From Escherichia coli (GTDB taxonomy: Bacteria; Pseudomonadota; Gammaproteobacteria; Enterobacterales; Enterobacteriaceae): a stretch of DNA of 64,000 nt. The position numbers were made by a program, and so were the translations under genes. This document shows positions 31,987-43,472 of the stretch, one piece after another. The DNA lies in assembly GCF_013122565.1 (NCBI RefSeq), contig NZ_CP053258.1; one strand, 5' to 3'. Position 1 is the stretch's first letter; the number at the start of each line of letters is the position of its first letter. The notes beneath the pieces were generated by a model. That model made no database searches and had not been told where the DNA came from. It worked only from the letters and a program-made list of their open reading frames with translations.

Positions 31987-34900
31987 TTAGTCAAACGGCG
32001 GTGGGGCCAGCACTTCACGATTACCGTTGTGCCCCTGTTCGCTGACAATCCCCTGCGCTTCCATCTGTTCGATAATACGCGCTGCACGGTTATAACCAAT
32101 GCGGAACTGACGCTGTACGCCTGAAATTGACGCTTTGCGTTTTTCAGTGACAAACTGCACCGCCTGATCGAACAACGGATCCAGTTCTTCAGCGCCATCG
32201 AAACCGCCCGCGCCACCTTCGCTTTCGCTGTCGGAGGTGATGCCATCAACATACTGTGGGCGACCACGCGCTTTCCAGTCCTGCACCACGGCATGAACTT
32301 CCTGATCGCGAACAAAAGCACCATGGACACGTACCGGTAACGTGGAGTTCGGCCCAGAGTAGAGCATATCCCCCATACCCAGCAGTGATTCCGCACCAGC
32401 CTGATCAAGAATGGTACGTGAGTCAATCTTACTGGATACGGTAAAGGCGATACGGGTCGGAATATTCGCTTTAATCAGACCAGTAATAACATCAACCGAT
32501 GGACGCTGAGTTGCCAGTACGAGGTGGATACCCGCGGCACGGGCTTTTTGCGCCAGACGTGCTATCAGCTCTTCCACTTTTTTACCTACCGTCATCATCA
32601 GGTCGGCAAATTCGTCCACCAACACCACAATGTATGGTTCTTTTTTCAGCACCGGATGCTGGGCGTCCATACTGTCACCCGGCTTCCAGTACGGGTCTGG
32701 AATCGGACGCATCATGCGATCGGCTTCAGCAATTTTTTCGTTATAACCCGCCAGATTACGCACACCCAGCGCAGACATCAGTTTATAACGACGCTCCATC
32801 TCGTTAACACACCAGCGCAGCGCGTTGGCGGCATCTTTCATATCAGTAACGACTTCCGTTAACAGGTGCGGAATGCCTTCATAAACCGAAAGCTCCAGCA
32901 TTTTCGGGTCGATCATGATGAAACGCACATCTTCTGGCTGCGCTTTATAAAGCATGCTCAGGATCATCGCGTTCACACCGACAGACTTACCGGAACCGGT
33001 AGTCCCCGCAACCAACAAGTGCGGCATTTTCGCCAGATCGGCAACCACCGGCTCACCGGCGATATCTTTACCCAGCACCACGGTTAATGGCGACGGATTA
33101 TCGCGGAATTTGGCGTTATCCAAAACTTCGCGCAGATATACGGTTTGTCGTTTTTTATTCGGTAACTCCAGACCTACATAGGGTTTGCCAGGAATAACTT
33201 CAACGACACGCACCGCCACCGTCGAAAGTGAACGGGCAAGGTCCCGTGACAAGTTAGAAATGCGCGCCGCTTTTACGCCAGGAGCCAAGTTAAGTTCAAA
33301 GCGAGTGATAACTGGCCCCGGAGAGTAATTGACGACATCGGCTTTAATACGGAAATCAGCCAGACGCGCTTCCACCAGGCGCGCCATTTGTTCAAGCGCA
33401 AAGGCATCTACCGGCTCCACTTCGCTCGGCGGAGGTGTCAGCAAATCCAGAGAAGGCAGCGGCGTCGTCGGTTTATGCAACGGACGGCTGTCGCCATTAC
33501 GCATCAACAGCGGATGAAGCAGGGTATCCTGCGGCTGTGGCGCAACTGGCTGTTGTGGCTGCTGATACTGCGGCTGCGGTGCAACCGGTTGTTGCGGCTG
33601 CTGATACTGCGGCTGCGGTGCAACCGGTTGTTGCGGCTGTTGATACTGCGGCTGCGGCGCAACTGGTTGTTGCGGCTGCTGATATTGCTGCTGTGGCGCA
33701 ACCGGTTGTTGCGGCTGCTGATATTGTGGCTGCGGCGCAACCTGCTGTTGTGGCTGCTGATACTGCGGCTGCGGCGCAACCGGCTGTTGCGGCTGCTGAT
33801 ATTGCTGCTGTGGCGCAACCGGTTGTTGCGGCTGCTGTACAGGTTCAACAATTGGCGTAAACAGCGGTTCGTGTGGACCATCATCCAGCAACGCTTTCAT
33901 TGGCGAAAATTCAAAATCATCCAGCGAGAACGGATTCGCCCCAGCCGGTTGTTCGCCGGAATAACGTTGTTGTTGAGTTTGCGCAAACTGACGAGCCAGT
34001 TCAGCCTCTGCCGCAGCATCTGCATCTTCTGCGTTTACGGGCACATCATGTTGATACTGTTCGCCATAGCGTTGCTGCTGTGTCTGGGCGAACTGACGTG
34101 CCAGTTCATCCTGCTGCATCGCATCGATTTCATCATCGTTGTACTGATCGCCAGAATCGTACTGATTGCGCTGGGCTTCACGGGCTTTTTCTTCCGCCGC
34201 ACGCTGTGAGGGCAGCTTAATACCGTAAGACGCCAATTCACGACGAGTTGGCACGCGGATACGTTTCGGTCGTGGCAACTGCGGGCCAATCCCCTCTTTG
34301 ACCTGCGGACGCGGTCCACCGCTATTTGCCAGACTGAAGACTGGCGCGGCAACGGTTGCGGCAGCCCCCGTCGCCAGTGTCGCTTTTTTCACGCCAGATG
34401 CCAGCGGAGAAACAGCGGCAGCGGCTTCTACTGGAGGTACTGCTGCAACAGAAGGTGCTTTCAGCGAAGATTTGATCGGTTCTGGTTCTTTAACCGGTTC
34501 TGGAATCGGTTGATACCAGGCCGCAAGTTGTTCACGTTCACGGGCTCGCTTCTCTTCCACTTCTTCAAAGTAGTAAAGCGGCGGACGCGCGGGTTTTGTC
34601 TCTTCTACAACGGGTTCAGGCTCCACAACAGGCTGCTGTTCAACAGGTTGCGGCTGTTGGTACAACGGCTCCTGAGCGGCTGGCTGCTGATAAGTTTGCT
34701 CAGTCTGGTATGTAGACTGTGGAGCAAAAGTGGATTGCTGCTCTTCGGCTTGCCAGGCGTTACCTGCCACCGGTTGTTCTGGCGCAGGGGCATAATACGG
34801 CTGTTGCGCAGGCTGTTCCGGCGCAGTTGCGTAATACGGTTGCTGAACAGGTTGTTCCGCCGCAGGAGCGTAGTAAGGTTGTTGCGCAGGTTGTTCAGCT

Positions 34901-36132
34901 GCAGGTGCATAATACGGCTGATGCGGCTGTACTGGTTGTTGCAGCGGCTCATTATATTGCACTGCAGGCTGCGCATATTGTGACTGCTGTGGGTAACCTT
35001 CCGGTGCAGGAGCAATAACCGGCTCTCCCGTTTGTGGACCCGGTACAGGCTGCCAGGCTACTGTAGGTTGCGAAGGTGGAACATCAACAGAGGCAACAGG
35101 CGGCGTCTGAGTCACAGGTTCAACCGACGCAGCCCAGCTTTGTGTCGCCGTGGTAGCAGCAGCTGCTACAGCGACAGGTTCGGTAATTGGCGCACCGTTT
35201 AATAATGGATCGTATTCGTCATATTCTGGCTGCGTTGCACGATTGCCCGAAAATAGGACGTCGTCAGGGTCGGCAACCACACCGCGTGCAGTGTAGGTAA
35301 TCTCTTCTTCATCATCCATCCGCTTACCGGAGAACAGCGCAGCATCTGTTTGCCGCCCCATCGGATTAATGAATTTTTCCGCCAACCGTTTACGACGCGC
35401 TAGCGCGCCGCGAAGAATACGGGCACGGCGTGATTCATGCTGTTTGCCGTGATTTTCATCTTCATACTCTTCGTCGTCTTCATACTCATCTTCATCGACC
35501 CAGGTATCATCGCGACGGGTACGATTACTGGCGAAGGTGAGAATGTTTAAAATCCAGCCGCCGAGTTTTTCAGCAATGGTCACCCATGACCAACCGGTGA
35601 ACAACGTCAGGCCCGCTGCCCAAACGCAGAGCAGCGCAATAGTTCCCCCGCTACTGTGTAGCAGTGGTTGTAGCGTAGTGCTTAGTAAGCTGCCAATGAC
35701 GCCACCGGAGGCAAAATACCAGATATCGTCAGCGTTGATTGCCGCCAGACCACAGGAGGTAAGGATGAGCGCCAAAACGCCAATGATGCGTAGCGAAACG
35801 GCAAAATAATCAATGTATTCGTCGCTGGACTGATGACGCCAGGCAAACCAACAACCGCCGACAATAATGACGGGAATGGTGTAAGCCATCACGCCAAAAA
35901 TAAAGAACAGCGTATCTGCCAGCCATGCACCGGGCATTCCACCTAAATTATGGATAGGTTCATGCCAGGCCGTTTGCGACCAGCTGGGGTCCGAAGGGTT
36001 AAAGCTTAGTAAGGCAGCCATCAACCAGACGGCAAACAGGACAATAAGGATCAGCAACGCCTCCAGAAGGCGGCGGCCGCTACTTAACTTTGTCAATGTG
36101 ACTTCTTTGTCTTCAGTGTATTCCTGGCTCAA
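31987..36132 (-). CDS. ftsK: DNA translocase FtsK (divisome / chromosome dimer resolution)
   Basis: 1381 aa, TTG start; N-terminal TM domain, Pro/Gln-rich linker with tandem 13-aa repeats, C-terminal motor with Walker A GTTGSGKS and gamma domain. Confidence 0.95.
33525..33845 (-). repeat. About 8 tandem copies of a 39-bp repeat inside ftsK (encodes [10 protein letters not shown](P/Q)QY units)
   Basis: Plus strand shows ctgcggctgcggYgcaaccggttgttgcggctgctgata repeated head-to-tail with minor variants. Confidence 0.9.
34770..34925 (-). repeat. About 4 tandem copies of a second 39-bp repeat inside ftsK (encodes PYYAPA(A/P)EQP(A/V)QQ units)
   Basis: Plus strand shows ggttgttcYgg/cgcaggRgcataatacggctgttgcgca-like units repeated four times. 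Confidence 0.85.
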
Positions 36133-43384: not shown

Positions 43385-43472
43385 GGTGAGGTGTCCGAGT
43401 GGCTGAAGGAGCACGCCTGGAAAGTGTGTATACGGCAACGTATCGGGGGTTCGAATCCCCCCCTCACCGCCA
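43385..43472 (+). tRNA. serW: tRNA-Ser (anticodon GGA)
   Basis: 88-nt sequence GGTGAGGTGTCCGAGTGGCTGAAGGAGCACGCCTGGAAAGTGTGTATACGGCAACGTATCGGGGGTTCGAATCCCCCCCTCACCGCCA: long variable arm, GGA anticodon, encoded CCA end. Confidence 0.95.

What the first reader, a model, noticed from the sequence alone, without database searches (positions are those of the whole stretch)
33525..33845. Expanded 39-bp tandem repeat in the ftsK linker (8 copies of a [13 protein letters not shown]-like unit)
The ftsK ORF is 1381 aa, while I recall the K-12 protein as 1329 aa; the 52-aa excess equals four 13-aa units. The DNA shows near-perfect head-to-tail 39-bp repeats, a substrate for slipped-strand or recombinational copy-number change. 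Linker length affects how the membrane anchor is coupled to the motor domain.
Basis: partly seen in the sequence, partly recalled or inferred. Interest (0 to 1): 0.35.

Follow-up and report, generated by a model that had tools for sequence, protein, structure and literature searches.

The report
Known ftsK linker VNTR (CVN001/ms07)
The 39-bp tandem repeat in the ftsK linker is real, but it is the well-known strain-typing locus CVN001/ms07, and its 8 copies here fall inside the ordinary 4-12 copy range seen in E. coli, so the finding is ordinary.

Summary
The 52-aa excess over K-12 is 2 extra units in this array (8 vs 6) plus 2 extra units in a second 39-bp array upstream (window 34765-34944; 4 vs 2). 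Both arrays are established MLVA typing loci whose published primers match the window: the flagged array is CVN001 = ms07 and the upstream one is ms06. Among E. coli/Shigella FtsK alleles on record, array B runs from 4 to 12 units and array A from 1 to 5, while the rest of the protein stays at 1217 aa. In systematic samples of 5,426 complete genomes, 6 and 7 units dominate, 8 units is a minority allele (about 3-12%), and 4 units at ms06 is the commonest allele. The array sits at the same position in Salmonella, Citrobacter and E. whittamii. It is best read as an in-frame minisatellite in the disordered Pro/Gln-rich linker that changes by replication slippage or unequal exchange and is tolerated. 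Already known; low interest.

The parts
31987..36132 (-). ftsK coding sequence, 1381 aa, TTG start; DNA translocase FtsK
   Evidence: ORF list. Exact protein is WP_171459563.1/QJU24789.1 'DNA translocase FtsK [Escherichia coli]'. Pfam FtsK_4TM aa 20-191, FtsK_alpha 892-992, FtsK_SpoIIIE 1000-1213, FtsK_gamma 1316-1376. Neighbouring ORFs in the window match lrp, lolA and rarA as annotated in K-12 and eight other genomes.
33529..33840 (-). Array B (the flagged repeat): 8 x 39 nt, aa 765-868, units (V/Y)QQPQQ(P/Q)VAPQ(P/Q)Q; MLVA locus CVN001 = ms07
   Evidence: TRF; unit table; lag-39 statistics; primers bracket it; PMC4644529 Table 1 equates ms07 with CVN001.
34765..34944 (-). Array A: second 39-bp repeat, 4 units of (P/T)A(A/P)EQP(A/V)QQPYYA type, aa 397-456; MLVA locus ms06; holds the other 26 aa of the excess over K-12
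   Evidence: TRF 34772-34925, period 39, 3.9 copies, 77% matches; alignment gap vs K-12; ms06 primers exact; 2/3/4-unit alleles in the genome sample.
33437..33458 (+). CVN001 reverse primer site (ECMLV4-R)
   Evidence: Exact match; primer from PMC11773471 Table 1.
33932..33952 (-). CVN001 forward primer site (ECMLV4-F); predicted amplicon 33437-33952 = 516 bp
   Evidence: Exact match.
33433..33452 (+). ms07 reverse primer site (1 mismatch at the primer's 5' base)
   Evidence: primers from PMC5013238 and PMC4644529.
34078..34097 (-). ms07 forward primer site; amplicon 665 bp, so (665-353)/39 = allele 8
   Evidence: Exact match; offset 353 bp from PMC4644529 Table 1.
34655..34674 (+). ms06 reverse primer site
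   Evidence: Exact match.
35014..35033 (-). ms06 forward primer site; amplicon 379 bp, so (379-223)/39 = allele 4
   Evidence: Exact match; offset 223 bp from PMC4644529 Table 1.
33157..33459 (-). FtsK alpha domain (aa 892-992), first folded domain after array B
   Evidence: Pfam PF17854. The E. coli FtsK C-terminal crystal construct 2IUS aligns from aa 870, two residues after array B ends.

Best explanation
The flagged feature is the known variable-number tandem repeat CVN001 (= ms07) in the E. coli/Shigella ftsK gene. It is an in-frame minisatellite of 39-bp (13-codon) units that encodes the last stretch of the Pro/Gln-rich, structure-less linker just before the FtsK motor. Shown here: each unit is a whole number of codons, so gain or loss of units never breaks the reading frame; copy number ranges from 4 to 12 among alleles while the rest of the protein keeps a constant length; the window carries 8 units here and 4 units at the sister locus ms06. 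Inferred: copy number changes by replication slippage or unequal homologous exchange between in-register units, usually one to a few units at a time and at a low rate, so copy number tracks lineages. Also inferred: changes of a few units are tolerated because this segment acts as a flexible spacer between the membrane anchor and the motor. The 8-unit allele is ordinary standing variation, not a special expansion.
For: Identity with the named loci: CVN001 primers match exactly at 33437-33458 and 33932-33952. The ms07 primers match at 33433-33452 (1 mismatch) and 34078-34097. PMC4644529 Table 1 writes 'ms07(CVN001)', 39-bp repeat, and PMC11773471 lists 'CNV001 (ftsK)'.

Polymorphism, flank-only query on a systematic sample of 60 of 5,426 complete genomes, spans tallied by hand: 4 units x1, 5 x2, 5.5 x1, 6 x23, 6.4 x3, 7 x27, 8 x2, unresolved x1. 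A second sample gave seven rows with the 8-unit span, and fetched loci showed 5.4 to 9 units. Among 131 full-length alleles on record, array B has 4-12 units, array A has 1-5 units, and the non-array length is 1217 aa in 124 of them. Published typing data: CVN001 alleles 4-8 in 116 Swedish isolates and monomorphic in ST131 (PMC5217547).

Stepwise change: the 7-unit array of strain CEC03102 is identical at the DNA level to window units 3-6 and 8, and window unit 7 differs from unit 6 by 1 nt. Long alleles show 2-unit higher-order duplications. The longest exact in-register repeat in the window's array is 53 nt at an offset of 117 nt.

Location in unstructured linker: there is no Pfam domain between aa 192 and 891. 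Solved structures start at aa 848-870. The array is 77% Gln+Pro. The literature calls FtsKL an unstructured, low-complexity Pro/Gln-rich linker of variable length (PMC5357621, PMC5391129).

Age: the array lies at the orthologous position in E. whittamii, Salmonella enterica subsp. arizonae and Citrobacter. The Salmonella ftsK 39-bp locus is the MLVA marker SENTR2 = STTR7 (PMC2430564).

Tolerance: exchanging a two-repeat (28-aa) ftsK linker indel between two S. Enteritidis strains did not change survival in egg white (PMC6137255).
Against: The mutational mechanism (slippage versus RecA-dependent unequal exchange) was not measured here and is inferred from allele structures. Neutrality is not shown. 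The peptide unit is better conserved than the DNA: 8 of 10 variable nucleotide columns are third-codon positions (P = 0.0034), pairwise differences are 71 in synonymous against 15 in nonsynonymous codon changes, and the same [13 protein letters not shown] unit occurs in three genera. This argues that the peptide sequence, and perhaps a minimum array length (none shorter than 4 units was seen), is under selection. The only functional test of a two-repeat change found in the literature used a single phenotype in Salmonella.
Confidence: 0.9

Rival explanations
1. The 8-unit count is an assembly artefact: the repeat was expanded or mis-joined during assembly, and the true allele is shorter, perhaps K-12-like.
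For: Draft assemblies do have trouble here. 'Partial' FtsK proteins of 752, 762 and 769 aa, on 16, 5 and 4 contigs, end at the first units of array B. The exact 1381-aa protein is on record from only one contig, and no reads are available to check.
Against: That contig is 4.82 Mb, i.e. a finished chromosome. The array is in frame with intact flanks. Independent assemblies carry the same architecture: a Shigella flexneri allele on 37 contigs has an identical array B peptide and differs from the window protein at 7 residues in all, an E. coli allele on 106 contigs is also A4/B8, and the complete genome PS10-3 has 8 units with 0-3 nt differences per unit. The units differ enough (1-9 nt) to be placed unambiguously.
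Confidence: 0.04
2. Copy number is adaptively tuned: the number of [13 protein letters not shown] units sets the reach or stiffness of the tether between the septal anchor and the DNA pump, or the number of binding sites for a partner, and the 8-unit allele was selected in this lineage.
For: The peptide unit is under purifying selection and is conserved across Escherichia, Salmonella and Citrobacter. No allele with fewer than 4 units was seen. Large linker deletions impair division and dimer resolution, and parts of the linker interact with FtsQ, FtsL, FtsI and FtsZ (PMC5357621 summarising Bigot 2004 and Dubarry 2010).
Against: A wide range of copy numbers (4-12) coexists in one species, with combinations such as A3/B9 and A4/B8 giving the same total length. 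Copy number follows lineage rather than any obvious niche in the samples. A two-repeat allele swap had no effect in the one test published. Other bacteria manage with linkers of about 125-200 aa (PMC5357621).
Confidence: 0.07
3. It is a phase-variable (contingency) repeat that switches ftsK expression or product on and off.
For: It is a tandem repeat inside a coding region and varies in copy number.
Against: The unit is 39 nt = 13 codons, so unit gain or loss keeps the frame. All 131 full-length alleles examined are open through the array. The N-terminal part of ftsK is essential (PMC3140498). Copy number is stable within lineages: K-12 derivatives all have 6 units, O157:H7 mostly 7, and ST131 is monomorphic.
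Confidence: 0.01

Closest known systems
CVN001 (generic E. coli MLVA, Lindstedt et al. 2007) = ms07 (Shigella/E. coli MLVA panel of Gorge et al. 2008)
   Same: Same locus. Published primers bracket the flagged array, with a 39-bp unit inside ftsK, and it is polymorphic among strains. The window scores as allele 8 under the ms07 offset convention.
   Different: Nothing structural. Counting conventions differ by about one unit between schemes: ST131 is '6' in PMC5217547 but has 7 units by my anchor-based count. The window would therefore probably be called 7 in the Lindstedt convention.
ms06 (Shigella/E. coli MLVA panel)
   Same: The upstream array A in the same gene is this locus. Primers match exactly, the unit is 39 bp, and alleles of 2, 3 and 4 units are common.
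   Different: It has a different unit sequence ([13 protein letters not shown] type), lower unit identity (77%), and lies in a different part of the linker (aa 397-456).
SENTR2 = STTR7, the 39-bp ftsK VNTR of Salmonella enterica MLVA schemes
   Same: A 39-bp tandem repeat in the ftsK linker, with 9.3 copies in S. Enteritidis (PMC2430564). In S. enterica subsp. arizonae the [13 protein letters not shown] units sit at the orthologous position before ...[12 protein letters not shown].
   Different: Different species and different unit variants at the array ends. The indel reported in S. Enteritidis is 84 bp, not a multiple of 39 (PMC6137255).
FtsK linker domain FtsKL (Pro/Gln-rich, low-complexity, variable length between species)
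   Same: Both arrays lie in this region, between the 4TM anchor and the alpha domain. The literature describes it as unstructured, non-conserved, about 650 aa in E. coli, and involved in divisome interactions (PMC5357621, PMC5391129, PMC3140498).
   Different: The literature read here treats the linker as a whole or in large segments. It does not address natural unit-number variation. From memory (not checked here), Dubarry et al. 2010 mapped the division-relevant parts to aa 179-331 and 332-641 of K-12 FtsK. That would include array A (K-12 aa 397-430) but not array B (K-12 aa 739-816).

Membership tests
VNTR locus CVN001 / ms07 | Flanked by the published locus-specific PCR primers | tested here: met
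   CVN001 primers match exactly at 33437-33458(+) and 33932-33952(-). ms07 primers match at 33433-33452(+, 1 mismatch) and 34078-34097(-). Each has a single site in the 64-kb window and none in shuffles.
VNTR locus CVN001 / ms07 | 39-bp tandem repeat unit located in ftsK | tested here: met
   TRF period 39, 7.9 copies, inside the 1381-aa FtsK ORF. The repeat size of 39 bp is stated in PMC5013238 and PMC4644529.
VNTR locus CVN001 / ms07 | Copy number polymorphic between strains | tested here: met
   4 to 8 units in a systematic sample of 60 genomes, 9 units in fetched loci, and up to 12 in alleles on record. Published allele table in PMC5217547.
VNTR locus ms06 (array A) | Flanked by ms06 primers, 39-bp unit, polymorphic | tested here: met
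   Primers match exactly at 34655-34674(+) and 35014-35033(-). TRF period 39. Alleles of 2, 3 and 4 units occur in 20, 15 and 25 of 60 genomes.
FtsK DNA translocase (FtsK/SpoIIIE family) | N-terminal 4TM anchor, alpha domain, FtsK_SpoIIIE motor domain and gamma domain | tested here: met
   Pfam PF13491, PF17854, PF01580 and PF09397 are all above their curated cut-offs. PDB 2IUS (E. coli FtsK C-terminal domain) aligns to aa 870-1381.
Contingency locus (phase-variable coding repeat) | Unit length not a multiple of 3, so copy-number change shifts the reading frame | tested here: not met
   The unit is 39 nt = 13 codons. All 131 full-length alleles remain open through the array.
Contingency locus (phase-variable coding repeat) | High switching rate, with variation inside clonal lineages | tested here: inconclusive
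   Copy number is uniform in K-12 derivatives (6) and nearly so in O157:H7 (7, with one 5.5-unit exception), and CVN001 is monomorphic in ST131. No mutation rate was measured.

The most novel reading that the evidence does not exclude
The [13 protein letters not shown] unit is not a neutral spacer but a selected peptide module, for example a polyproline-II-like stiff segment or a multivalent binding site for a divisome or chromosome-segregation partner placed directly in front of the FtsK motor. Natural copy-number variation (4-12 units) would then tune how far or how firmly the pump is held from the septum, giving lineage-specific differences in the timing of chromosome clearance and division. 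The hints are the excess of synonymous over nonsynonymous differences between units, the conservation of the unit across Escherichia, Salmonella and Citrobacter, and the absence of alleles with fewer than 4 units.
Probability: 0.08. Interest if true: 0.4.

Novelty: already known. Interest (0 to 1): 0.07.

Why it matters
It matters little beyond bookkeeping. The locus has been used as a strain-typing marker (CVN001/ms07, with ms06 beside it) since about 2007-2008, and the window simply carries alleles 8 and 4. Three practical points follow. First, FtsK length differences between E. coli strains should not be read as anything unusual, because they come from two independent 39-bp VNTRs. Second, K-12 is a short allele (2 and 6 units) rather than a species standard. 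Third, short-read assemblies often break at array B, so copy numbers taken from draft genomes need care. One open and modestly interesting question remains: does the conserved peptide unit or its number have a function at the linker-motor junction?

Tried and rejected
1. Full-gene and array-containing megablast queries left about 12 of 60 rows unresolved, because overlapping repeat pieces were not joined. I replaced them with flank-only queries, which resolved 59/60 and 60/60 rows.
2. I guessed that the unresolved rows were all alleles with more than 8 units. Fetching seven of them showed a mixture of 5.4, 6.4, 7 and 9 units.
3. The look-up of encoding contigs for the exact protein found nothing, so the source record and its sequencing technology could not be identified. 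I also suspected that the window came from Shigella, but the exact protein is labelled E. coli.
4. The full-length protein search returned only E. coli/Shigella alleles among the best 120, so it gave no cross-genus view. A degenerate DNA pattern scan of one genome per species supplied that, but it finds only genomes with an exact [12 protein letters not shown] unit and therefore understates the taxonomic spread.
5. Dubarry et al. 2010 (Mol Microbiol) is not held in the library. Its linker sub-regions are quoted from memory and marked as such.
6. Concerted evolution: within-genome versus between-genome unit distances show only a weak signal (about 4-5 against 5-7 differences per 39 nt). I make no claim of strong homogenisation.
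7. The phase-variation reading was rejected because the unit is 13 codons long.
Full report
**Observation**

Tandem Repeats Finder reports a period-39 array of 7.9 copies at window 33529-33837, with 90% matches, no indels and score 478. Using conserved protein anchors (PLFTPIVEP upstream, DTLLHPLL downstream), the array is exactly 312 nt = 8 units at 33529-33840 on the minus strand, residues 765-868 of the ORF. The units encode [13 protein letters not shown] followed by seven YQQPQQ(P/Q)VAPQ(P/Q)Q units, and they differ from one another at 1-9 of 39 nt.

Identity at lag 39 is 0.89, against 0.286 +/- 0.026 (maximum 0.399) in 5000 shuffles. This is the strongest lag-39 signal in the whole window. 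Together with a second array in the same gene, it is the only tandem repeat scoring 60 or more in 64 kb.

The ORF is 31987-36132 (-), 1381 aa, TTG start. K-12 MG1655 ftsK (b0890) is 3990 nt = 1329 aa, also with a TTG start. The observation and the recalled K-12 length are both correct.

**Where the 52 extra residues are**

The alignment with K-12 FtsK shows two separate 26-aa gaps. One lies in the flagged array: 8 units in the window against 6 in K-12. The other lies about 1 kb upstream in a different 39-bp array (TRF 34772-34925, 3.9 copies, 77% matches; anchor-defined 34765-34944, aa 397-456). That array encodes [13 protein letters not shown]-type units, 4 in the window against 2 in K-12.

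**What it is**

Both arrays are named typing loci.

| Locus | Primer sites in window | Amplicon | Allele |
|---|---|---|---|
| CVN001 (ftsK) | 33437-33458 (+) and 33932-33952 (-), both exact | 516 bp | - |
| ms07 | 33433-33452 (+, one 5' mismatch) and 34078-34097 (-, exact) | 665 bp | (665-353)/39 = 8 |
| ms06 | 34655-34674 (+) and 35014-35033 (-), both exact | 379 bp | (379-223)/39 = 4 |

The CVN001 primers come from the generic E. coli MLVA scheme, listed as 'CNV001 (ftsK)' in PMC11773471 Table 1. The ms06 and ms07 primers come from the Shigella/E. coli panel of Gorge et al. PMC4644529 Table 1 writes 'ms07(CVN001)' and gives the offsets of 353 bp (ms07) and 223 bp (ms06) used above. K-12 is 6 at ms07 and 2 at ms06. 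In Salmonella, the 39-bp ftsK repeat is the MLVA locus SENTR2 = STTR7, with 9.3 copies in S. Enteritidis (PMC2430564).

**How common the window's alleles are**

I queried 5,426 complete E. coli genomes with flank-only sequences, so that the span of the match reports the array length, and took the tool's evenly spaced sample of 60 genomes. The tallies below were made by hand from the tables.

| Array | Units | Genomes (of 60) |
|---|---|---|
| B | 4 | 1 |
| B | 5 | 2 |
| B | 5.5 | 1 |
| B | 6 | 23 |
| B | 6.4 | 3 |
| B | 7 | 27 |
| B | 8 | 2 |
| B | unresolved | 1 |
| A | 2 | 20 |
| A | 3 | 15 |
| A | 4 | 25 |

- An earlier sample with the array included gave seven rows with the 8-unit span. 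Fetched loci showed 5.4, 6, 6.4, 7, 8 and 9 units.
- Among 131 full-length FtsK alleles returned by the protein search, array B spans 4-12 units and array A spans 1-5 units. The non-array part is 1217 aa in 124 of them, and total lengths reach 1433 aa.
- A 9-unit, 1394-aa allele is seen on at least 1000 contigs. The same 1381-aa length also arises as A3/B9 (179 contigs).
- Published data agree: CVN001 alleles 4-8 in 116 Swedish isolates (40% each for 5 and 6, 13% for 7, 5% for 8), monomorphic in ST131 (PMC5217547). That scheme appears to count one unit fewer than I do, since ST131 is '6' there and has 7 units.

Eight units is therefore a minority but ordinary allele (about 3-12%), four units at ms06 is the modal state, and K-12 is a short allele.

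**Is it an assembly artefact?**

- The exact 1381-aa protein is on record (WP_171459563.1 / QJU24789.1, E. coli) from a single 4.82-Mb contig. The contig look-up returned nothing, so the reads and platform are unknown.
- Independent assemblies carry the same architecture. A Shigella flexneri allele on 37 contigs has an identical array B peptide and 7 residue differences overall. An E. coli allele on 106 contigs is also A4/B8. The complete genome PS10-3 has 8 units that differ from the window's at 0-3 nt each.
'Partial' FtsK proteins of 752, 762 and 769 aa (16, 5 and 4 contigs) stop at the first units of array B.

I put the artefact reading at about 4%.

**How it most likely works**

Shown:
- The unit is 13 codons, so unit gain or loss keeps the frame, and every allele examined is open through the array.
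- The array lies in the region with no Pfam domain between the 4TM anchor (aa 20-191) and the alpha domain (aa 892-992).
- It ends two residues before the start of the E. coli FtsK C-terminal crystal construct (2IUS aligns from aa 870). No solved structure covers it.
- The peptide is 77% Gln+Pro.
- The literature describes the linker FtsKL as an unstructured, low-complexity Pro/Gln-rich region whose length varies between species. Its removal disturbs division and dimer resolution, and parts of it contact FtsQ, FtsL, FtsI and FtsZ (PMC5357621, PMC5391129, PMC3140498).

Inferred:
- Copy number changes by replication slippage or unequal homologous exchange between in-register units. The 7-unit array of strain CEC03102 is identical at the DNA level to window units 3-6 and 8, and window unit 7 is a 1-nt variant of unit 6, as expected for a one-unit duplication.
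- Long alleles contain 2-unit (78-bp) higher-order duplications. The longest exact in-register repeat in the window's array is 53 nt at an offset of three units.
- Copy number is stable within lineages (K-12 derivatives 6, O157:H7 mostly 7, ST131 monomorphic), so the rate is low.
- A two-repeat (28-aa) linker indel exchanged between two S. Enteritidis strains did not alter the one phenotype tested (PMC6137255).

**Age and constraint**

A degenerate back-translation of [12 protein letters not shown], scanned across one genome per species, hit an E. coli-labelled genome, E. whittamii, Salmonella enterica subsp. arizonae, two Citrobacter amalonaticus genomes and a Citrobacter MAG. In each, the units sit at the orthologous place between ...GPHEPLFTP... 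and ...L(L/I)[10 protein letters not shown]..., with about 4-7 units. The scan finds only exact units, so the real spread is wider.

Within the window's array, 8 of 10 variable nucleotide columns are third-codon positions (P = 0.0034 under equal rates), and pairwise differences are 71 in synonymous against 15 in nonsynonymous codon changes. The peptide is thus better conserved than the DNA. This leaves some room for a functional module rather than a purely neutral spacer, but it says nothing about whether 8 units behave differently from 6.

**Comparison with the known, and verdict**

The flagged feature is CVN001/ms07, and all three defining features were tested and met: primers, a 39-bp unit in ftsK, and polymorphism. 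The neighbouring array is ms06. It is not a contingency locus, because the unit is a multiple of three.

Novelty: already known. Interest: low (0.07). The most novel reading still open is that unit number tunes the tether between the septal anchor and the pump, or the valency for a partner. I give it about 8% probability and moderate interest if true.

Noticed in passing
window 34765-34944 (-), aa 397-456 of FtsK: A second 39-bp VNTR in the same gene (MLVA locus ms06, [13 protein letters not shown]-type units).
   Followed up: yes
proteins P0004, P0010, P0011 (cluster of the window's FtsK); equivalent to window ~33800-33845: 'Partial' FtsK proteins of 752, 762 and 769 aa, on 16, 5 and 4 contigs, end exactly at the first units of array B. 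Draft (short-read) assemblies commonly break at this repeat.
   Followed up: partly
window 31987-36132 and flanks 36200-58000: The window's lineage is poorly represented. The best identity to any of 5,426 complete E. coli genomes is 99.0% for ftsK and 98.6% for 21.8 kb of flank (best hits O145:H28). FtsK residues E275, V286, S336, H404 and A910 differ from K-12 and from the closest same-length alleles listed. The exact protein is on record from one 4.82-Mb contig only.
   Followed up: partly
window 33388-34209 (+): A 273-aa antisense ORF runs through the repeat (Leu/Arg-rich '[10 protein letters not shown]...' translation). It looks like a by-product of the repeat's composition, and there is no evidence that it is a gene.
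   Followed up: no
proteins P0082, P0038, P0132 (E. coli FtsK alleles of 1420-1433 aa): The longest arrays (12 units) contain alternating two-unit (78-bp) higher-order repeats, e.g. ([26 protein letters not shown])x4. This indicates multi-unit duplications as well as single-unit steps.
   Followed up: partly
L007 and L008 (array B of 70 and 83 aa); also 769-nt spans, including strain Nissle: Some alleles carry a truncated 5-aa unit (QQPQY), so array length is not always a multiple of 39 nt. This implies deletion between short repeats inside a unit, and it would give non-integer MLVA calls.
   Followed up: partly
summary lines (E. coli genome collection): Eight matches of the flank-only ftsK queries lie on records labelled as plasmids. 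These could be misassigned chromosomal contigs or ftsK fragments on plasmids.
   Followed up: no
window 43385-43472 (+): A single tRNA-Ser (anticodon GGA) is the only tRNA in the window. Nothing unusual was seen around it.
   Followed up: no
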